A DNA stretch of 52,933 nucleotides, the filler included, from Jimgerdemannia flammicorona (lineage: Eukaryota), in assembly GCA_003990765.1 (NCBI GenBank). It is 2 parts of 2 records of this genome, joined end to end, with 100 filler letters (N's around TTAATTAATTAA, not from the genome) between each part and the next. Parts side by side here need not be neighbours in the genome. Positions count along the whole stretch, not along the records: positions 26,524 to 52,933 come from RBNJ01000731.1; 1 more part is not named here. One strand, written 5' to 3'. A program made the translations under genes and the position numbers. The notes under the pieces are model-generated. The model saw only the letters and a list, made by a program, of their open reading frames with translations, was not told the DNA's origin and made no database searches. Within the stretch, counting starts at the first letter, position 1. Each line of letters opens with the position of its first letter. This document shows, in pieces, positions 1 through 46,199 of this stretch.

Positions 1-70
1 TTTTTTTTGTGGGAGGTACTTTTGTAATTGTTCCGGTGCTATCTACTCACCATCTGGTAACCCCTACCAG

Positions 71-906
71 GACATTAACACACCCGAAACAACGACATCG
101 GGAAACATCCACGGTTGCCCCGTCTCGTTCCTTCTGGGCATCGCGGGTGAAGTCCCCGAGTTCGAGTGGGTGCCGCACTGCCTGCGGCCCGACCGGATTG
201 TCTACATTGGCCTGCGCGACGTGGACAAGGACGAGAAGCGTATCCTCCGCGAGAAGGGCATCAAGGCCTTCTCTATGTCCCATGTCGACCGCTACGGCAT
301 CGGCCAGGTTGTCGAGATGGCACTCGATCACGTCAATCCGAAAAGGGACCGCCCCATCCATTTGAGCTTCGATATCGACGCGTTGGATCCCAGCGTTGCG
401 CCTAGTACGGGTAGGTTTGGGATTGAGTGAATTTGGGCGGTTATTGTCTAGGAAGGCGGCAAGTGGGAATGTCTGGGCAATTTCTACTCGTTGGGCGAGT
501 TCCTTTTTGTACAAAAAACAAGCGTTATCGGTGTCTCAACAAACTACCTTCGTCTCATCTTCCACCCACTATCCCCAGGCACCCCCGTCCGTGGCGGTCT
601 GACCTTCCGCGAGGGTCATTACATCTGCGAGGCCATGTCGGAGACGGGCCTGCTCGTAGGCGTCGATATTATGGAGGTCAATCCGGCTCTTAAGAGCAAG
701 TTTTCAGGTCAGACGGTCAAGATCGCGTGCAGCTTGGTAAAGTGCTCGCTTGGTAAGTTTTTTTTTTTTTTTTTTTTTTTTTTGGGAATGTTGGCAGGGC
801 GACTGAGAGGTCCTGTCCGTTGGTGCTTCCAAGCTTGACCTGGTTACTGTGCTATGCGAGCGATTAATATAACGCCCCTCATTTTCTAGGCGAGACCCTG
901 CTTTGA
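71..906 (+). CDS. CAR1: Arginase, 3' part (exons ~71-410, 579-752, 890-906; 5' exons lie outside the window)
   Basis: Spliced translation [23 protein letters not shown]...[10 protein letters not shown]...[31 protein letters not shown]...VDIMEVNP...LGETLL* matches arginase motifs; GT-AG introns restore frame. Confidence 0.95.
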
Positions 907-23753: not shown

Positions 23754-24559
23754 CGTAATTTCAGATTGATGAGAATTTGAATAGAATGGATAGAGCGATT
23801 AAAAGATCGGTTGAATTTGACTAAGTGGTGATCTCGGCGCAGTATCTTGTTTGGTCACAAGATCATCCATCTTAAATTATCGGACACTAAAACATGGAGC
23901 ACAGCATCTCATAATCCTGGTATCATACATTTAAGTACCTGTGTACACCAAGTATGTCATATATGTAACGTGTTACGATGAATAAGGGAATTCGATTGTA
24001 TCAAATACAAATTTCCGGAACGGAACGTGACGTCGTCGCCTATTTGGGATTACTATTACATTAAAAATACAATTATATATTTTTCCCTTACACAAAATCA
24101 ACTTTCAGAATACAGGTTTGGAGTATACTAAATATCTACTATTATAACTAAATAGTATTTGAATTATTTTTTAGAAATTATCAATTTACTATTATAACTG
24201 ACTTATTATATATAATTGAAGATTTATAATTATATAATAAAGAGTAGAATATTTATATTTATAGTAAAATTAATAATTATATTATATAGTCTATATATTA
24301 GTATATATTGTTATATATAGTTGTCTTTTATTATATCTATTATAATTATTATTTAACTAAAATAAATATCTTTTTAAATTATAATTGTAATTTTAAAAGT
24401 TTGAAATATATATATATATATTTATAGTTACTCAGACTTTGACATTTATTACCATACCTATCTAACTCTAATATATATAATACAGTAACTCTACTCTTAA
24501 CCAATCTCTTTAGAGGGACTATTTTTTTTTTTTTTTTTTTTTATAGTCACTTAGACTTC

Positions 24560-26390
24560 ACTAGTCTATTAATAAGTTTACAGTATCTCCTCCCACTATC
24601 TGATCTCTATAGAAGAGCCTCTTCCTACATCATCACAAATAAAGACTATTTTCTCACCCACTACTCCAACTCTTCCCTCACTCTGCCTACAGATTTTCTC
24701 TACTAAACAATACCTTCAACTACCCTGCAACCCCCAACCAAGCCACCAGTCTGTCAGGGTGTCTTTCATAAGTCTATGCCAATGAAACAGCCAGTTCCCT
24801 AAGTCCAGTCTCCTCTCATCCTCAAAAACAAATAACCAGTAACTGGCCAGCCCCACTCAAATCACCAAAATCTAGCCTAAGATAAGCCACTCCTTCTTCA
24901 CCCTCCTCACCAGTCTATTTCTCAAATCCTCTCACTGACTCCATGTGCCATCTCCCCTATACACTACCTCCAAATGATCCCCAATAGTCTACCAAAAGTC
25001 ACTAAGTACCTCACACTCTCCTAGTCAATATTCAGGTATCTGTATATATCTCCCTTTCTGCTCTATATTGTAGCACTCCTTATAGTCAAAGCAGCCCCCC
25101 TTAATAAGGTGACCCAAGTAGAAGTTGAGCATTACATTCTTTCTCAGTATATACTACCAAACCATCCAGTACTTCAGTGGCATCCACCTCCTCACCTCAG
25201 CACTCTAGGCTCAAATGCTATGCCAGTTTCACTCTTCTCCAATATCTACTCCCTGCCATCTGCTAGGTCACAGATTCTGGCCTGGTCTCCTTTGGCATTC
25301 TATTCCATAGCAAATCACCTAAGGATCCTTGTAGAGAGAATCTCATCTCCCACACCTTCTGCATCAGAGGTACTCAGCCCTCTCTCTATAGTTCCACCAC
25401 CCTTTTTAACCACCAAGCTTGCAGACAATGTAGCTGCTTAGGAAGATCTACTAGGCCTAGCCCTCTCTGAACCACCAGTGTTGCCAGAGTGTTCCAACCA
25501 ATCTGGGATTGCCTCTCTGCCCAAATCTAATCCCTAGCCAGTTTCATCAGTCTCTTCACTACCCAAGCCAGAAAGTCCAAATGATAAGCAATATACCATA
25601 GCTTGGGGAACCAATAGATATTCAGGATTGATACCTGGCCTGCTAGGAAGATGTGGTGACCTCCCCAACCTCTTAGAGCCTCTCTCCAAATGGCCACCCT
25701 CTTCTTTCACCACACCCATAGCAAGACTGAACCATATACTGAGAGAAAGATGTCCAGGTACCTCACCACCTCTTCTGTAGGGACAATTGTTCCAATAATA
25801 TCTCCTCCCACTAGACCATTCCCCAGCACTATTGTCTCACACTTATGCCAGTTGAGTTTCACCTTAGAGTGTGCCTCATACCAATCCACTGTCTTCTGAA
25901 GTACTTCTACATCTACTACTGAGCCAAGACCAACTACCATATCATCTGCAAAGGCCCCTACCTTCCACACCACACTATATACCAAGAGCTCTACCACTTT
26001 CTACTGTATCCTATCCATCAAAGGTTCCAATGAAAGAGTATAGAGAATAGGAGATAATGGGTCTCCCTGAGGAACTCCTCTCCCCAAGGTGAATGCCAGA
26101 CTCTGATGACCATTACACATCAGTGCTGCCCTACTACCCTCCAACAGATTCAACATAGATACTTGAAATTATGAGGGAACACTAATTTTATCCAGTACCT
26201 TGCCTAGCCACACTCACCAAACATGGTCATAGGCCTTCTCCTGGTCCAAAAAGACCAGTCTCCCATCCAATCCACAAGCTCTTACTCCTTCAATAATGCC
26301 ATGAACCCAGGCAGTCCCATCTCTGATAAGCCTGCCTCCAACAAAGCCCCACTGCTCCTCTCCAACCAGACCAGTACACTGTATCAGTTC
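24560..26390 (-). mobile_element. L1/Tx1-like non-LTR retrotransposon ORF2 (RT) remnant
   Basis: EQWGFVGGRLIRDG, LVFLDQEKAYDHV, RGVPQGDPLSPILY, GAFADDMVVG; many stops; strongly CpG-depleted. Confidence 0.9.
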
Positions 26391-33895: not shown

Positions 33896-35082
33896 ATGGC
33901 GAAGGCGATAGTACGGAAAACAACGACGAGCGCGGCATCTTGTAGAATAAAAAACGAACCGGAGTATGAGGGTGTTAAACAAACCAGATATGTGGAGCTG
34001 AAGATTGAAGATGAGAGTAAAAATTTGAAGGACATAGAGGTTGACCCTGAAAACAAAGACGAAGACGCTACCAGACAGACAGGGTAATATTATTAGTAGT
34101 TATAATAACTGTACTTGCATCGAAGTTCCGAGATTTACTAATGCATATGATCGCATAGCTCACAGCTGAAGGTTAGAGAACTACGGCAAAAATATGGCAT
34201 CTCCGAGGCGTCTTGGAATAGGATTAAGACCGCCCTTGTTAGCCATCTTCTGCTCGTGGACCTTTTCCCATCTTTGACTGGGTTCCCAGGCGGAGATTTT
34301 GTATCAAATGTGCTCAAACGCCTTGCATTGAACACCATTGATAAGAATGGAGAAATCTACGGCGCAGTGCGTATATTTGATTCCAGTTTTCTCATAATAT
34401 ACGAGAGCCCGAGTCAACTGTTCTCAAACTATTGTTACATTCCTGGCATCTATATAGGTTAAGCACCAAATTGTACTCTGTAGATCTCGCATCAGGGAAA
34501 TGTTCAGAGTACGATTCGATGACATATTTCGCGATGTGGAGATTCCTACCAAGTTTGCTCTCGGCAACATAAATGAGGAACGCCGAAAGTCGGTTCAACA
34601 CCTTGTATACAAAAACAAATTCCTTTACACACGTGACCCGACTACCGGCTATCTCGAGAAGCCGTTCGCAAGCATATATATCAAACGTTCCCTATACCAT
34701 TTGGTCCTGAAACGTAATCCTCGCTTTGCGAACGTGATTGGCCCCGACAGACACATCACTCTGAACACTCTTGCAGGCGTGTGTACCTTCGTAAGTTTTC
34801 TTAGTACTAAGTATACTGAATTATTCTGTCTTAAATAGTTCGCAGGATCTAATTAGTGTTTTATCCACATGCTAGCTGGAGTGTATCATGACGAAACAGC
34901 CAGCCTTCAGGGAGAAGACGCATAAATCTATGTATACGAAGTGGGTCCGCATGGTCGAGGAAACAAAGTCGCACATCGACCTGTTGGCAATCGAGAGAGA
35001 AGCCGGTAAAATCGGTAATATTGAAGAGGGAGATGTCGTTGTTATTCCGGACGTCCCTCTAATACTCGTGGATTCGGATTAG
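33896..35082 (+). CDS. Multi-exon hypothetical protein, C-terminal region DUF6532-like (about 4 exons)
   Basis: Spliceable ORFs 33896-34083, ~34159-34360, ~34458-34790, ~34875-35082; FLYTRD..EKPFAS.YIK..TLAGVCTF|LECIM..FREK..MY pattern. The domain call is from memory of the pattern only. Confidence 0.6.
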
Positions 35083-37519: not shown

Positions 37520-40200
37520 TTATTTTAACATAGACAAACTCTTCATGAATGTTGATGCTGTAGTTGCCAATGACCGAATTTGTACTTGAATAGCTCTATC
37601 AATTTTTTGAGATCAGCAAACTAAGGATCTGAACAAGGTAATGTTTTTATAGACCTTTTATGTCTACTTGTTGGTTGTCTTGTCTCTATATTTTATGAAT
37701 AATTTAGACCTAGGAGAATAATTGAAAAGATATCTGAACCTAACATTGGTAGTTCCAGCACTATTACAGAACTACTACCAAGAATATCAAGTCTACCAAA
37801 AATCACAGCAGATCTAATAATCACTCTATCAAGCCATTAGTCTATAAGCTCACCCATCTCAGTAATATCATAAAAGAGTCAATTTCAAATTACAATCAAC
37901 ATACTACAATAACAAAAGAAGAACCTCAACTATCTCACTAAATAGATAATAGAGATAGTAGAATAATATTAGTAGATAACAAGATAGTAGTACTAGCTGA
38001 ATAAGTAGCTATACTTACTCAAATTCTTTATCTTAGTATTGAAACAAACAAATCCACTAAAGGCCTCTGTCTCATACTATTCAAAAGTAAAGTAGACTAA
38101 GTAACAACATTTATAGGACAAGTTGACACTAATTATTAATGGATAAAATAATAATCAGAACTCAAACAGTACTCTCAATAATAATAAGCACTATGAGATT
38201 GAAGATCTCTATATAACTATAGACTCATAAGTATAAAAAGTTACTATCTATTTTATAGATATAGCTGCTCAGTAGTACCACAATCTATCAGTATACTCTC
38301 TTATCTGAAAAATCTATACTGAAATTGATACAAGTAAAGGAGATAATGATCACTTTAACTATAAGTTTACTTAACTACTGTAGACCTAAAGAAATTAATC
38401 ATCCAATAATTCCACAGCTCTGCCCATATTGCCAAAGTCAGAATCAATCTCAAGAATCTTTAATTTTATAATAATAAAAAAGAAGATCTTAAAGTATTTG
38501 CTATAAGACTAAAAATTCTTCTAAATACTATATGTAAGAGCAAAATACAGCTAATGAGAATAGACTGTAAATAGAACCTGAGCCATCTATTTCTTTGATA
38601 CCATCTCTGGATGATTATTAGAGAAAATTTATAAATAAGAATAACTCTATAATTGCCCACATAAGTAATAGTGTCTATAATAAGCTATTATCAGATTATA
38701 TACTATTCTTACAGCTCAAAGGCTAAGAGACAATAGAAACAATAATAAAGGAGACAAACAATATCAAATTGAAAAAAAGTATGAAACTCAGAATAAGTCC
38801 TCAAGACTACAAAATAGATTTAAAAAACTATCTGATAAGAAAATAGAAAAACTTATAAAAAAAGAAGTATATTTTTACTACAAAAAGAGAGAACATACAT
38901 ATGTCTCATAAATACTCTGATAAGAAGACCAATATAAATAAAGAACTATTCTTCTTATATACTATTATTATGATAGGAGATAACTCTAAAGGAATCTCTG
39001 AAAAAATTAAGGTTAAGAGATTCTATATTATTATAAAAATTCTAAACACATCATATGAATCAAATACTAGCTATAATATCTACTCTAGTATAGAAGTAAC
39101 TATCAAACCAAGTAAGTAAGTAACTATTAACACAGATGTTAGAATAGAAGCCTCCAAAGAAACCTATATCTGTTTTATAAAAAAGAACAGTCTGGTCAAG
39201 AAAGAGAGACTCTATATAATTAGAGAAGTTATAGACCAAGAATTTAAAGGTAAAATCAAGTTCTGCTATATAATACTAGACAGAAGACAGTTGAAATCAT
39301 ATGTGGAAAATAAATTGCCCATATTGTCATTGAGATAATATGCAATAATCTTAAATTTGAAGAAACAAATGAACTATCACTTTCTGATAAAGAAGAAAAA
39401 GCTTTTAGATCAACAAAAAAGTACCTAAGGCCAAAGAGAAGGCCAAGATATAGAAGATTATCTATATTAAAGAACCTAAGATCAAGACTAGAAATAGTTA
39501 TCAAAATTAAGTATATTGCTAGAACTAAGAATAAAGTAGCTGATGCTCTCTCCCAGAGTACTCAGAAAGACAACCTCACTGTGATTAATAACATTATCAC
39601 TAGCCTATTTGAAGAAGTTAAGAAAGAGTATACCAAGGATATCATTATATAAAAAATCATTAAATAAATCTTTAAAAAAGGAAGCAATATCATGAAGAAG
39701 GTCTATAAGAATATATCTGTCCAAAATGGATATATATATCTTAATAATATAAGAATTTAGATCTCTGACATCTCTATCTACTTATAAATCCTATAAGAAC
39801 TACATAATATACCACTTAGTCAATATCACCAATATTATCAGTAATAACCAAAGAATATCTTCACCCTGACTACTCCCCAGAACCAAGCTGAAGAAGTCAA
39901 TAGAATCATCACTGAGTAGACTGAGATCTATATCAGCTAAGAGAAATTTGACAGACTTAACAATGAAATCACCTAAGAAATATTCAACACATTTATCATA
40001 CTTAACAAAGAAGTCACCCACACTCAAGGAGTCAGAAAAGAATTTGAAAGATTAATCAGCAGCTACTTTGATGAGAAATGTATAAGAGAATCTATTGAAG
40101 CTGCAAGTGAACATTTCCTGAATCTCCTCCTCAACAATTGCTCACATGCTGAAACCAACCTCCCGATCAAGCAGTTCACAGAACAAGTAGTCTGTGGCGG
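37520..40200 (+). mobile_element. Heavily mutated Ty3/Gypsy remnant
   Basis: IKYIARTKNKVADALSQ at ~39505-39555 (RNase H end motif) followed by an integrase-Zn-like IL.ELHN.P; AT-rich, nearly no CpG, many stops. Confidence 0.7.
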
Positions 40201-42270: not shown

Positions 42271-43121
42271 ATAAAATGAGCGCTTCGAAATGGTTCTCGC
42301 AATTCGTATTCAAATTGGCGTACCGCCATTTCCGGATAGTCTCACGTCATTCAATTTTATTGGTGGTTACATCGTACACATCGTAGCCATATTTTGTGAT
42401 GATAGTTACTAATATTTCCAACCATGGGCGACACGAGCGAAATGACGCACGTTTCTCTATGACTTATTTTAACTGCCACTCAATAACTACTGTCAAACAT
42501 ATTGCGGGATTTGAAAGTGGGGCTTCGTCAACGGAATTGGGATTGGAACCAGAACCATTGAGAATTCTGCGTAGAAAGGAGGGCGTGTCGATGCAGGTGT
42601 ATGTTCAGGAAACTTGCCCTTTTTTTTCTTGCTATAGGAAGAAATACCGGGTGCGTAATTTGATCGAATCCCAAATGGCAATGGCGTGACACAATGATTA
42701 GAGCACATACTCTACAATTGCCGACATTATTTCTCCTTAAAAAAAGGGGGAAGTGCAGAAAGTAGACGCAAGGATGTTATTTGTCAATCACGATTATAGA
42801 CGAGGCTTGGAAGATTTGGGTGGAACTATTAAACCTAATTACTGCAGAAATTTGTCGCTCGACTGAAACAAAGCCGAATGGCTATCTTTCTTAGTAAAAT
42901 GTCCAAATCCAGACAAAATCGGTGAACAAAAAAGAAAACGTGAGGTTTCCACGTGGCGCTTTCGACCACTATTCATTTCGTGGCACTCGCGCCAGGAAAC
43001 GTAATTTCCCGATAGTGATTTTTATTTGTCCAACGGTACATATTCAGGAGCGCGCCCGATTTCACGGCACTCTCATTGTATAAATAATCGAGCTCAATAT
43101 TCGCCAAGAGCAGTACTCAAC

Positions 43122-45644
43122 ATGATCCATTTGAAATTTTCAATCCTTGCTTCGGCACTACTTGGCGTCCTCTCAGCGGTCGGCGACGCGGCTTCGGTGA
43201 CCCCGTACAAGTGGGGCAACGTCAAGATTGGCGGCGGAGGCTTTGTCCCTGGCATTGTTTATTCCTCAACCCAGTCAGGTTTACTGTATGCGCGCACCGA
43301 CATTGGTGGAGCCTACCGTTGGACGGCGAGCAAACCGCAGTGGACCCCCATTACGGACATCTTTAGCGCAGCATCTTCGAATTTTCTCGGAGTCGAAAGT
43401 ATCGCGACCGATGCAAAGGATCCGAAGCGTCTTTATATTGCTGTCGGTCAGTACGTGAAATCATGGGCCGGAAACGGGGCCATTCTTGCGTCAAAGGTAA
43501 ATTCATTTGAGCATACGCTATTGCAAATGTCCGCTGGCAAGTGAGTCCAATATTGACAATGCCTTCTTTGTAGAATCAAGGCAATACGTGGACCACCCAA
43601 TGGAATGCTTCGTTCCCGATGGGAAGCAATGAGGATGGACGCGGCGCTGGCGAACGTCTGGCAGTCAACCCGGTCAACAACAATATCATCTTTTTCGGCT
43701 CTCGAACAGCCGGATTGTGGATGAGTACGAATTACGGCCAGTCGTTCACTCTGGTGACCAGGTTAGGAAAATAAAAAAATTCTTTAGCAAAGGCGTGTTT
43801 TTTGGGAGCGTAACGTCATTAGATTTAACAATGGATTATATATTGTTATAATAACCGAATCTTTAGTTACCCGACGCCACCCACTGATAACAACGGCAAA
43901 GGAATTGTCTTTGTTCAATTCGCTCCGAATACACGAGGTCAAACCGTGTTTGCGGGTTCCCACGACTTCAACAACCCCTTGTACCGTAGTACTAACGGCG
44001 GGAAGACTTGGTCAAGTGTTTCGGGACAACCAAAGGGTTATTTCCCTATGCGCAGTGCCTTTTCTTCCGACGGTCGCTCCCTTTACGTGACTTACAGCAA
44101 CGGCCCCGGACCCAATGGTGTGACAAACGGTGCAGTATGGAAATATACTCTCTCAAGCGGCGAGTGGACCGACATCACCCCAAAGAAGCCCAAGGTGAAC
44201 TCCAACCCATCTTTCGGTTATTCTGGGGTTTCCACGGATGCAAAGAATCCAGAAATCGTTGTCGTTTCTACAATTAACAATTGGGCCTTGGGTGACGACG
44301 TCTATCGAAGTCTTGATGGTGGATCGACTTGGAAATCGCTCAAATCGACCGCCGTCCAGGATATAAAGGTGGCACCCTGGTTGAAATTTGGCAAAACCGC
44401 ACCTGGTTTCGGCTGGTGGATCTCAGATGTGAAGATTGATCCATTCAATTCCAATAGAATTCTATATGTAACCGGTGCTACTATCTACGGTTCAACCGAC
44501 GTGAACAATGCTGACTCTGGAAAGCAAACGCATTGGAGCCCCGTAACGAAAGGATTGGAAGAAACTTCGGTCCAAGGTACGGAGAAAGGAAATATAGAGG
44601 CAAGCAATAGGAATACAGCAGACCGGTTTAATTTAAACTAATCTATTTCACTGTTTTCGTTGCCAGATTTGGCCTCCCCACCTAGTGGGCCCGCGCTGTT
44701 TGATGCCATTGGCGATCTCGGAGGCTTCACCCATCAAAACGTAAGCAGGGCTGCTCAAATGTGGACCAACCCCATGTGCAGCTCCGGCAGCTCGGTCAAC
44801 TTCGCTGGTCAGAAACCCAGTTATGTTGCTCGTGCGGGTACGGATGGTGGAGGGTATAGCGTAAATGCTGGGAAGACGTGGAAGAAATTCACCGGTGTCC
44901 CACCTAATGGTTCTGGCGGTTTGGGAAAGATCGCTGTGTCAGCCGACGGCAAGACTATCGTGTGGACACCTTCCAATGCCGATGCATATTGGTCTCGGAA
45001 TAACGGCACAAATTGGACTGCGGTTTCTGGGCTCAATCCTGCCAATCTCGCTGTTGTTGCTGACGGTTGGGACCCGAAGACCTTCTACGCATACGACACC
45101 AACAGTGGGACTCTTTGGGCTAGTACTAACTCGGGCAAGGTAAAGATTTAACAAGATCAACCTCTGCGATTTCCAAATCATTCTGTGATCAACACTAACA
45201 AAATCTTGCGTTCAAATGTATTGGCAGACATTCGTCAAGCGTGCCACTGGCGTCGTAACTGGTTCTGGGGTTCTGAACACAGTCTATGGCAGCAAGGGAA
45301 CTGGAGATCTGTGGCTTGCATCTGACGACGGTTTATATCATTCGACCAACGGTGGTAAGACATTCTCAAAAATTACAGGCGTGACTTCTGCTGAAGCTGT
45401 CGGATTTGGAGCACCCGCATCTGGCTCTTCCTACTCTGTCACTGTGTATATTGCTGGTGTTGTTGACGGGTTCTACGGCGTCCATCGTTCGGTGGACGGT
45501 GGTACCACCTGGACTCAGCTGAACGATGCGAAGCATCAGTGGGGTTGGATTGGGAAGAAGGTCATCGGTGATCCCAGAAAGTTTGGGAGAGTTTACGTGG
45601 CCACAAATGGGCGAGGCATTGTCCTTGGTGATGACGCTTCATAG
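43122..45644 (+). CDS. Secreted GH74 xyloglucanase (exons ~43122-43496, 43574-43761, 43867-44577, 44668-45139, 45228-45644)
   Basis: Signal peptide; YKWGNVKIGGGGFVPG..LYARTDIGGAYRW (catalytic Asp), GSNEDGRGAGERLAVNP, GWWISDVKIDPFNS, GLEET, IGDLGGF (second catalytic Asp), GDPRKFGRVYVATNGRGI; BNR/Asp-box repeats. Confidence 0.96.
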
Positions 45645-46199
45645 TTCCATCCGCATTCTACTTGTTTTTCTTGTTGTGTTTTATCAATTTGTATTGCTTT
45701 TGAACATATACAAATACGTCGTATGTGAATTAAGAATGTTTATAATGAAATAAAAGAGATCGAATTTGAAGTTCCTAGATTACGAGGCAGATGTATTCCC
45801 ATTCAATCGAGTTGACAAGAAGATTATAGAAACGCCACTCTCTTCCGCCGATAATGGTCCAGCTTCAGTTGTCATTATTATTCTTATTATTTTGTGGAAC
45901 CCTCCTAGATAATTGAATGTGGAGCATCAACTTGGAGGATTTTTTTCGATACATTGTAATCATCACGAAATGTGTATTATGTTTTCAGTATCAACTTTTG
46001 ATTACGATGTTATTACTGTTGAATATAATAATAAAAATAATTAAAACCTTTCAACATTATAAACAGAAATGCAACTATATAAGCTATGAACCAAGTATTC
46101 TACACATCAAACTACAATAGTAGTATTCTGGATCTAAAAAAACCTCCAATATCTCCAGAAAGCTTTCTTGCATCTCGTTGACGTAGCTCACATCCACGG

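What the first reader, a model, noticed from the sequence alone, without database searches (positions are those of the whole stretch)
43122..45644. Intron-containing GH74 xyloglucanase with bacterial-type sequence: candidate horizontal transfer
Seen: intact secreted GH74 with both catalytic Asp residues, four introns and no CBM. Motifs such as WLKFG..GWWI..IDPFNSNR..Y.TGATIYG and WGWIG..IGDPR.FGRVYVATNGRGI resemble, from memory, actinobacterial or firmicute GH74 more than Dikarya enzymes. Inference: if the host is a Mucoromycota plant associate, where plant-cell-wall enzymes are generally few, this may be a domesticated bacterial gene for xyloglucan remodelling.
Basis: partly seen in the sequence, partly recalled or inferred. 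Interest (0 to 1): 0.7.

Follow-up and report, generated by a model that had tools for sequence, protein, structure and literature searches.

The report
Bacterial-type xyloglucanase gene in Endogonales fungus
A mycorrhizal early-diverging fungus carries an intact, intron-bearing, transcribed gene for a plant-cell-wall (xyloglucan) cutting enzyme whose nearest relatives are enzymes of anaerobic gut fungi and then bacteria, so any transfer from bacteria was ancient rather than a recent private gain.

Summary
Window 43122-45644 (+) encodes a 720-aa secreted GH74 enzyme in five exons with four GT..AG introns, both conserved catalytic Asp residues and no CBM. The public protein, identical outside intron 2, is named Jimgerdemannia flammicorona (Endogonales).

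It is not contamination. The neighbouring genes are eukaryotic, and a soil metatranscriptome contig identical to the window splices out intron 4 exactly.

The sequence is bacterial-like. Solved bacterial GH74s score 437-530 bits and the Geotrichum (Ascomycota) enzymes 365-383. Every organism-named hit in three top-120 lists is bacterial, apart from this protein and Neocallimastigomycota.

In all five trees that held both groups, the protein is sister to dockerin-bearing GH74s of anaerobic gut fungi (support 100 or 1.0; stem 0.24-0.52). No bacterium exceeds about 50% identity, and base composition is close to the neighbouring genes'.

The best reading is an old bacterial-type GH74 lineage shared by two early fungal groups, not a recent domestication in a plant associate. 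Placement beside one bacterial lineage (P0135) is not rejected (p-AU 0.06-0.12).

No Dikarya GH74 other than the Geotrichum entries in the PDB could be obtained. GH74 in Mucoromycota is already noted in print.

The parts
43079..43084 (+). TATAAA box, 43 nt upstream of the start codon
   Evidence: Pattern search in a script and the sequence. Its function is inferred.
43122..43496 (+). Exon 1 (125 codons). It holds the start ATG, a putative signal peptide (about the first 21-24 codons), and the first catalytic Asp (D60, codon 43299-43301).
   Evidence: D60 aligns with the D/A difference between 2cn2 and 2cn3 and is D in 358 of 360 homologues.
43497..43573 (+). Intron 1, 77 nt, GT..AG, phase 0
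   Evidence: The frame is restored only by this splice. No RNA cover.
43574..43761 (+). Exon 2 (188 nt)
   Evidence: It matches GH74 homologues.
43762..43866 (+). Intron 2, 105 nt, GT..AG, phase 2, 29% G+C. The public annotation instead places a 57-nt micro-exon (43788-43844) here, between 'introns' of 26 and 22 nt.
   Evidence: The 19 extra residues are absent from 5 of 5 Neocallimastigomycota homologues. No RNA cover, so this is not settled.
43867..44576 (+). Exon 3 (710 nt). It contains W327-A328 (44282-44287), where solved endo-GH74s have a Trp-Trp pair.
   Evidence: All 4 distinct solved enzymes shown (2cn2/2cn3, 6p2m, 6p2n, 4lgn) have WW there. In the 365-row alignment the second position is W in 156 of 363.
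44577..44666 (+). Intron 3, 90 nt, GT..AG, phase 1
   Evidence: No RNA cover.
44667..45139 (+). Exon 4 (473 nt). It contains the second conserved Asp (D441 of the model, codon 44714-44716, motif GDLGGF).
   Evidence: D in 363 of 365. The 3' part is covered by an RNA contig with no differences.
45140..45227 (+). Intron 4, 88 nt, GT..AG, phase 0. Shown to be spliced out in RNA.
   Evidence: One 439-nt soil metatranscriptome contig (run X1) lies on 44871-45137 and 45226-45397 with 0 other letters: 'skips 88, GT..AG (cut +2)'.
45228..45644 (+). Exon 5 (138 codons plus TAG stop at 45642-45644). It holds the C-terminal motif KVIGDPRKFGRVYVATNGRGIVLGDDAS.
   Evidence: Covered by contigs of runs X1, X2 and X3.
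45645..45770 (+). 3' UTR, with AATAAA at 45749-45754. RNA contigs end at 45735, 45767 and 45770.
   Evidence: Contig ends are only a weak hint of a poly(A) site.

Best explanation
The locus is a functional, transcribed nuclear gene of the ectomycorrhizal Endogonales fungus Jimgerdemannia flammicorona. It encodes a secreted, single-domain GH74 endo-beta-1,4-glucanase (xyloglucanase).

Mechanism (inferred from the family): two seven-bladed propellers form a cleft in which two Asp residues (D60 and D441) hydrolyse the xyloglucan backbone. The second Trp of the Trp-Trp platform in the positive subsites is Ala here, so I predict an endo-dissociative (non-processive) mode. With no CBM, the enzyme would diffuse freely. 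A role in loosening host primary walls during apoplastic colonisation, or in feeding on soil or root xyloglucan, is plausible but untested.

Origin: the gene belongs to a bacterial-type GH74 lineage. Its only other known members are the dockerin-bearing GH74s of anaerobic gut fungi (Neocallimastigomycota). The most likely history is one old entry of a bacterial GH74 into early fungi. From there it reached both lineages by descent with many losses, or by an old fungus-to-fungus transfer. It has since been fully naturalised (introns, near-host composition, eukaryotic signals).

Shown: gene structure, one splice, transcription, family membership, catalytic residues, and the ML sister relation. 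Inferred: substrate, mode of action, biological role, and the direction and number of transfers.
For: Gene and enzyme:
- The five exons give an open 720-aa frame.
- All 17 PDB hits are GH74.
- D60 and D441 are conserved.

Fungal, not contaminant:
- The window also holds a split arginase, Per1 (324 bits), an O-FucT-like ORF and an ankyrin-repeat ORF.
- A soil RNA contig identical to the window splices intron 4 exactly. Three further contigs from three coded studies cover exon 5 and the 3' UTR.

Sister to Neocallimastigomycota:
- The best hit among 1.84 billion representatives is P0121 (616 bits, 47%). It is named Neocallimastix californiae, with a Piromyces finnis relative, and carries CBM_10.
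- FastTree, 365 rows: SH 1.0, stem 0.24.
- LG+C20+F+G4 PMSF, 70 rows x 711 columns: SH-aLRT 100, stem 0.41.
- LG+F+G4, 43 rows: stem 0.33.
- 51 rows including the P0135 clade: LG+F+G4 stem 0.35, PMSF stem 0.52, SH-aLRT 100 in both.
- Eight columns share a residue that is rare (5% or less) in the 358 other rows. The maximum is 3 and the median 0 for 101 control clades.
- The AU test rejects JIMFL with L061+P0124 (p 0.0036) and with the P0085 clade (p 3e-9).

Bacterial-type and old:
- Every organism-named hit in the top 120, other than these fungi, is bacterial.
- 765 bacterial species-genome loci encode relatives. The best 80 are 39-46% identical.
- GC3 is 0.48-0.58, against 0.56-0.74 in neighbouring genes.

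Processivity: Trp318/319 (Paenibacillus KM21) and Trp347/348 (PoGH74) are required (PMC10317168, passages). The window has W-A where 4 of 4 solved enzymes shown have W-W.
Against: - With the myxobacterium-like P0135 lineage in the data set, the AU test does not reject JIMFL+P0135. LG+F+G4 gives dlnL 85, p 0.068; PMSF gives dlnL 57, p 0.071.
- Nor does it reject JIMFL with the P0135 clade (p 0.118 and 0.056).
- Site likelihoods conflict along the protein. Columns 51-100 and 401-450 favour P0135.
- Analysed alone, the two fungal groups go to different places. JIMFL goes to L061+P0124 (92) or to P0135 (0.92), and Neocallimastigomycota to the clostridial-type clade (0.93). This pattern is also expected under long-branch attraction; the Neocallimastigomycota stem is 0.64-0.95.
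- The constrained trees came from fast searches, and the 43-row free search was stopped before it ended.
- The backbone around the fungal clade is weak (58-92), and the root is not inferred. 'Nested in bacteria' therefore rests on midpoint rooting in some of the trees and on the overwhelmingly bacterial diversity.
- No Dikarya, chytrid or other Mucoromycota GH74 could be put in the tree.
- The equivalence of W327-A328 to the published processivity Trp pair is inferred from position, not shown.
Confidence: 0.6

Rival explanations
1. A bacterium, for example a relative of the lipoprotein-type, Ala/Gly-rich P0135 lineage, gave the gene directly to the Endogonales lineage. Neocallimastigomycota acquired theirs separately, for example from gut Firmicutes. 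The fungal pairing in the trees would then be long-branch attraction or come from unsampled related donors.
For: - The AU test does not reject JIMFL+P0135 or JIMFL with the P0135 clade (p 0.056-0.118).
- Without Neocallimastigomycota, FastTree puts JIMFL beside P0135 (0.92). Without JIMFL, Neocallimastigomycota sit beside the CBM3/dockerin clostridial-type clade (0.93).
- Parts of the alignment favour P0135.
- No other Endogonales or Mucoromycota homologue appears among the hits listed, so the distribution is patchy.
Against: - All five trees that held both groups pair JIMFL with Neocallimastigomycota, with a long shared stem (0.24-0.52) and support of 100 or 1.0. This includes a site-heterogeneous model with P0135 present.
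- There are 8 shared rare residues, against at most 3 for the controls.
- RELL support for the pairing is 0.89-0.92.
- P0135 is only 48% identical, so no donor is close.
- GC3 is near the host's range and there are four introns, which argues against a recent event.
Confidence: 0.22
2. Plain vertical inheritance. GH74 was in the common ancestor of fungi, including Dikarya. The Endogonales and Neocallimastigomycota genes are slow-evolving survivors, and the Dikarya enzymes are fast-evolving members of the same fungal clade. No interdomain transfer into fungi is then needed for this gene.
For: - GH74 genes are reported in Ascomycota, Basidiomycota, Mucoromycota and Chytridiomycota (PMC11655419, parts 1-2 of 5 and term passages read).
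- The language-model search puts Basidiomycota and Ascomycota 'xyloglucanase' clusters first (0.98, 0.97). This is a lead only, and the first may be the protein's own cluster.
- On an unrooted tree the fungal pair is simply one side of a branch.
Against: - Geotrichum GH74s score lower than 13 bacterial structures for this protein (365-383 against 437-530 bits).
- For the Neocallimastix protein, Geotrichum scores 298-325 bits and the bacterial structures 323-440, apart from Niastella at 287.
- Geotrichum is no closer to these fungi than to a bacterial GH74 (P0085: 365-404 bits).
- No Dikarya protein is among the top 120 of three searches, including a profile built from the fungal pair.
- Xyloglucan is younger than the bacterial phyla that hold most GH74 diversity (xyloglucan ages from PMC11655419; the age of bacterial phyla is general knowledge). 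The family's spread must therefore involve transfer.
Confidence: 0.12
3. Artefact: a bacterial contaminant contig, or a chimeric assembly in a genome built from field material.
For: The protein looks bacterial by similarity ranking.
Against: - Four in-frame GT..AG introns are needed for the reading frame.
- One intron is removed exactly in an independent RNA contig.
- The same 53-kb window holds eukaryotic genes: Per1, a split arginase and ankyrin repeats.
- G+C is continuous with the surroundings.
- There is a TATAAA box upstream and an AATAAA before the RNA contig ends.
Confidence: 0.01

Closest known systems
GH74 enzymes of Neocallimastigomycota (P0121, named 'Oligoxyloglucan reducing end-specific cellobiohydrolase' of Neocallimastix californiae; P0273 of Piromyces finnis)
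   Same: - Best-supported sister group: 45-47% identity over the whole catalytic domain.
- Shared rare residues, including K in KVIGDP and the GDD[AT]S C-terminal end.
- Both Asp residues are conserved.
   Different: - The gut-fungal enzymes carry C-terminal fungal dockerin (CBM_10) repeats and a Ser/Asn/Lys-rich linker. The window protein has none.
- They keep the Trp-Trp pair (LWWP), where the window has W-A.
- Their gene structures could not be fetched, so intron positions were not compared.
Solved bacterial endo-xyloglucanases: Acidothermus 4LGN, C. thermocellum Xgh74A 2CN2/2CN3, Caldicellulosiruptor 6P2M (organism names recalled; the PDB titles give only molecule names)
   Same: - Full-length alignment (residues 23-739), 521-530 bits.
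- The catalytic Asp aligned with the D-to-A variant of 2CN3.
- The same double-propeller family.
   Different: - The window protein lacks the second Trp of the WW pair.
- It has shorter loops around residues 360-385 than 2CN2 and 4LGN.
- It has no CBM or dockerin.
- The gene has introns.
Dikarya GH74: Geotrichum sp. XEG (3A0F) and OXG-RCBH (1SQJ/2EBS)
   Same: Same family and the same two-propeller architecture. The hits are significant (365-383 bits).
   Different: - More distant than 13 of the 14 distinct bacterial PDB sequences.
- Not closer to this protein than to a bacterial GH74.
- Whether Geotrichum represents all Dikarya GH74s rests on recall only.
Published note of GH74 in early-diverging fungi (Trudeau, Brumer and Berbee 2024, New Phytol, PMC11655419)
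   Same: The paper states that putative GH74 genes occur in Mucoromycota and Chytridiomycota. [quoted passage not shown]
   Different: - The text I read gives no GH74 gene tree.
- A search of its main text for Jimgerdemannia and Endogon found neither name.
- It does not report the pairing with Neocallimastigomycota.
- Its supplements could not be read and may list the taxa.

Membership tests
Glycoside hydrolase family 74 (CAZy GH74) | Full-length sequence similarity to characterised GH74 catalytic domains (two seven-bladed propellers) | tested here: met
   17 of 17 PDB sequences matched are GH74 or OXG-RCBH. The best E-value is 1e-157 over residues 24-738. The Atlas model of the identical protein has TM 0.88-0.93 to bacterial GH74-type clusters.
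Glycoside hydrolase family 74 (CAZy GH74) | First catalytic Asp (RTDIGG motif) | tested here: met
   D60 aligns with the D/A difference between 2cn2 and 2cn3. It is D in 358 of 360 homologues.
Glycoside hydrolase family 74 (CAZy GH74) | Second catalytic Asp (GD[ILV]GG motif) | tested here: met
   D441 of the model is D in 363 of 365 homologues and invariant in the 16-row alignment A2. Its catalytic role is recalled, not tested.
Glycoside hydrolase family 74 (CAZy GH74) | Hydrolysis of the xyloglucan backbone | not testable with these tools
   Needs a recombinant enzyme and an assay.
Endo-processive GH74 subgroup | Trp-Trp pair in the positive subsites (Trp318/319 of KM21 XEG74; Trp347/348 of PoGH74) | tested here: not met
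   The window has W327-A328. The 4 distinct solved enzymes shown have W-W at the aligned place. The requirement is from PMC10317168 passages. The equivalence of numbering is inferred.
Interdomain horizontal transfer (bacterium to fungus) | The recipient gene nests inside a donor-domain clade with support, under a justified root | tested here: inconclusive
   The fungal pair sits beside a Firmicutes/Chloroflexota-type clade, but with weak backbone support (58-92). In the PMSF 51-row tree the midpoint root falls on the fungal stem.
Interdomain horizontal transfer (bacterium to fungus) | Patchy distribution in the recipient's relatives | tested here: inconclusive
   No other Mucoromycota protein is among the 120, 150 and 120 best hits. 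Those lists are capped, however, and the MycoCosm proteomes may not be in the databases.
Interdomain horizontal transfer (bacterium to fungus) | Not contamination: physical linkage to host genes, introns, transcripts | tested here: met
Interdomain horizontal transfer (bacterium to fungus) | Donor-like composition (expected only for recent events) | tested here: not met
   CDS G+C is 0.52 and GC3 is 0.54 (0.48-0.58 by exon). Six neighbouring coding stretches have GC3 of 0.56-0.74.
Dikarya-type fungal GH74 (Geotrichum XEG / OXG-RCBH as the only examples at hand) | Closer to these than to bacterial GH74s | tested here: not met
   365-383 bits against 437-530 for 13 bacterial PDB sequences. The same holds for the Neocallimastix protein and for a bacterial control.

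The most novel reading that the evidence does not exclude
The Endogonales and Neocallimastigomycota GH74 genes may be the last survivors of a single xyloglucanase gene that was already present, perhaps after one bacterial gift, in the common ancestor of chytrid-grade and terrestrial fungi. That ancestor is dated at about 750 Ma in PMC11655419.

If so, fungi could cut xyloglucan well before land plants diversified. This would go against the published ancestral-state inference that this ancestor lacked xyloglucanases. It would also make the Dikarya GH74s a separate, later acquisition.
Probability: 0.2. Interest if true: 0.7.

Novelty: new member of a known kind. Interest (0 to 1): 0.45.

Why it matters
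Ectomycorrhizal fungi usually shed plant-cell-wall enzymes (general knowledge, not tested here). An intact, expressed, CBM-less xyloglucanase in an ectomycorrhizal member of the early-diverging Endogonales is therefore a candidate tool for apoplastic root colonisation.

The gene also bears on an open question stated in print (PMC11655419): were fungal xyloglucanases gained convergently, by horizontal transfer, or inherited? The pairing with gut-fungal GH74s, apart from the Geotrichum type, suggests at least two origins of GH74 in fungi. It also gives a concrete, testable case through intron positions and a wider fungal tree.

Bacteria-to-fungus transfer of carbohydrate enzymes is well known, and GH74 in Mucoromycota has been noted. 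The finding is a useful data point rather than a surprise.

Tried and rejected
Getting Dikarya GH74 sequences failed.
- A CBM1 or dockerin pattern scan of the first 268 proteins found only the Neocallimastix dockerins and one chance QCGG.
- A candidate 'two-stretch' group (P0242 and others) proved bacterial-like; its best PDB hit is 6p2m.
- A profile of the fungal pair brought only bacteria after the fungi.

Other look-ups that gave nothing:
- No genome is held for the window.
- Arnal et al. 2019 (PMC6737227) is not held.
- The supplements of PMC11655419 are not readable.
- Earlier findings of this scan: nothing relevant.
- Paper search for 'Jimgerdemannia' with 'GH74': 0 papers.
- The BMC Genomics 2025 Endogonales paper does not mention GH74 or xyloglucan in its main text.

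Metagenome scan with exon 3: 23 pattern matches, of which 1 is a relative at 36% identity (L001). No close relative was found.

RNA: the three runs hold contigs only on 44871-45770. Exons 1-3 and introns 1-3 have no cover, which says nothing either way.

Tree tests that did not finish:
- treekit's AU test under the mixture model never finished in four calls.
- A full LG+C20 AU evaluation timed out.
- The 43-row IQ-TREE bootstrap search was stopped unfinished, and its best tree so far was used.

Window context:
- Pfam found nothing in the ORFs on either side of the gene.
- No tRNA genes were found.
- Tandem repeats are unremarkable.

Considered and rejected: contamination, and a recent transfer from Actinomycetota (Kribbella and Streptomyces top the similarity lists, probably because they are numerous). 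The AU test rejects JIMFL with the Streptomyces_b/P0124 pair.
Full report
**1. What is there**

On the + strand, five open stretches (43122-43496, 43574-43761, 43867-44576, 44667-45139, 45228-45644) join through four GT..AG introns of 77, 105, 90 and 88 nt. The intron phases are 0, 2, 1 and 0, and intron G+C is 0.29-0.40. The joined CDS is 2163 nt, or 720 codons plus TAG, with G+C 0.52.

A word-index search with exon 3 returned a 739-aa public protein, 100% identical over the exon. It is named endo-1,4-beta-glucanase of Jimgerdemannia flammicorona (P0001). NCBI taxonomy places that species in Mucoromycota, Endogonales. The genus is described as forming ectomycorrhizas with Pinaceae (PMC5729711, passages).

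P0001 equals my model except for 19 extra residues. They come from a 57-nt micro-exon (43788-43844) flanked by 'introns' of 26 and 22 nt. All five Neocallimastigomycota homologues aligned lack these residues. Introns that short are, from general knowledge, implausible. I therefore prefer a single 105-nt intron 2, but no RNA covers it.

**2. Enzyme family**

- The annotated protein matches 17 distinct PDB sequences, all GH74 xyloglucanases or OXG-RCBH, over residues 23-739. The best E-value is 1e-157.
- Pfam gives only sub-threshold Sortilin-Vps10 and BNR hits, and no CBM.
- D60 aligns with the residue that differs (D against A) between the two C. thermocellum Xgh74A entries 2cn2 and 2cn3. It is D in 358 of 360 aligned homologues.
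- D441 (GDLGGF) is D in 363 of 365 homologues.
- The N-terminus looks like a signal peptide by inspection. The PDB alignments start at residue 23-29.
- The window has W327-A328 where the four distinct solved endo-enzymes shown have W-W. In the 365-row alignment the second position is W in 156 of 363 rows.
- A review states that Trp318/319 of Paenibacillus KM21 XEG74 and Trp347/348 of PoGH74 are required for processivity (PMC10317168, passages).
- I infer that these are the same pair. The WW sits at 315-316 of chain 6p2n. From this I predict a non-processive endo mode.

**3. A real fungal gene**

- The same window holds an arginase split over two frames, Per1 (324 bits), an O-FucT-like ORF, a DUF6532 ORF and ankyrin repeats.
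- G+C of the gene region (0.48-0.50) is in line with the window.
- Three soil metatranscriptome runs from three coded studies hold contigs identical to the window. There is a single A>C difference, at 45555.
- One 439-nt contig lies on 44871-45137 and 45226-45397, removing exactly the 88-nt intron 4.
- Contigs end at 45735, 45767 and 45770, just after an AATAAA at 45749. A TATAAA lies 43 nt before the ATG.
- The gene is therefore transcribed and spliced in nature. Contamination is excluded.

**4. Relatives**

- Against 1.84 billion representatives there are 5643 hits (1309 at E up to 1e-30). The protein stands alone at 50% clustering. Its best hit is P0121 (616 bits, 47%), then P0122 (602 bits, 46%).
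- P0121 carries CBM_10 repeats and a Ser/Asn/Lys-rich linker. It is named Neocallimastix californiae and has a Piromyces finnis relative.
- In the top-120 lists, every hit that carries an organism name, other than these fungi, is bacterial. Examples are Kribbella, Streptomyces, Kitasatospora, Saccharothrix, Tepidisphaeraceae, Caulobacter and Firmicutes MAGs.
- A profile of the fungal pair scores Neocallimastigomycota at 1590 bits or more, P0001 at 1186, and the next protein at 726.
- In one genome per prokaryote species, 765 loci encode relatives. The best 80 are 39-46% identical.
- JGI metagenome contigs gave one distant relative only.
- Geotrichum enzymes, the only Dikarya GH74s I could compare, score 365-383 bits against 437-530 for 13 bacterial structures.
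- The Neocallimastix protein gives much the same order. A bacterial control (P0085) scores Geotrichum just as high, at 365-404 bits. There is thus no sign of a special link to the Geotrichum type.
- The language-model search did rank Basidiomycota and Ascomycota clusters first. This is a lead I could not test.

**5. Trees**

In every tree that held both groups, the window protein pairs with Neocallimastigomycota.

| Analysis | Rows x columns | Support for the pairing | Stem |
|---|---|---|---|
| FastTree | 365 x 690 | SH 1.0 | 0.24 |
| LG+C20+F+G4 PMSF (quick) | 70 x 711 | SH-aLRT 100 | 0.41 |
| LG+F+G4 | 43 x 685 | pairing recovered | 0.33 |
| LG+F+G4, P0135 clade added | 51 x 691 | SH-aLRT 100 | 0.35 |
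| PMSF, P0135 clade added | 51 x 691 | SH-aLRT 100 | 0.52 |

- Eight columns share a residue that is rare in the 358 other rows. The maximum for 101 control clades is 3.
- AU tests reject two alternative partners, with p 0.0036 and 3e-9.

There are cautions.
- With the P0135 lineage included (bacterial by its look: lipoprotein-type N-terminus, Ala/Gly-rich), the AU test does not reject JIMFL+P0135 or JIMFL with its clade. p is 0.056-0.118 and dlnL is 57-85.
- Site support is patchy along the protein.
- Each fungal group, analysed without the other, goes elsewhere.
- The backbone is weak and the root is unknown.
- I put the pairing at about three in four.

**6. Reading**

The gene is old in its host line. 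It has four introns, GC3 of 0.48-0.58 against 0.56-0.74 nearby, and no relative above about 50% identity.

The most economical history is one old entry of a bacterial-type GH74 into early fungi. It is now seen in Endogonales and Neocallimastigomycota, and it is distinct from the Geotrichum-type Dikarya GH74. A direct, separate bacterial gift to Endogonales remains possible, at about one in five. Full vertical descent with Dikarya is less likely.

**7. What is known**

Trudeau, Brumer and Berbee (2024, PMC11655419; parts 1-2 of 5 and term passages read) state that putative GH74 genes occur in Mucoromycota and Chytridiomycota. They also say that convergent gain against horizontal transfer needs further analysis. 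A search for 'Jimgerdemannia' with 'GH74' found no paper.

The presence of the gene is thus not new. The pairing with gut-fungal GH74s, and the evidence on splicing and expression, were not in what I could read. Supplements that I could not open may bear on this.

**Verdict:** This is a new member of a known kind, of moderate interest.

Noticed in passing
window 43762-43866: The public gene model (P0001) inserts a 57-nt micro-exon between 'introns' of 26 and 22 nt, adding 19 residues that the homologues lack. This is probably an annotation artefact.
   Followed up: partly
window 44871-45770: Contigs identical to this fungal gene occur in three soil metatranscriptome runs of 2017 from three coded studies. 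The fungus, or a very close strain, was therefore transcriptionally active in those soils.
   Followed up: partly
window 38001-40000 and 24001-25000: There are low-G+C stretches (0.27-0.30). The stretch at 24-26 kb has a strong negative GC skew (-0.36 to -0.43). No cause was sought.
   Followed up: no
window 34458-34838: An ORF gives a weak DUF6532 hit (E 1.4e-4, below the cut-off). It was not examined further.
   Followed up: no
window 2-838: An arginase-family gene runs off the window's start. It is split over two frames (2-430 and 452-838), consistent with an intron.
   Followed up: no
P0275 (1239 aa, JGI source): This protein scored 646 bits against the Neocallimastix GH74 at only 34% identity. 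That may indicate a tandem or duplicated GH74-like architecture.
   Followed up: no
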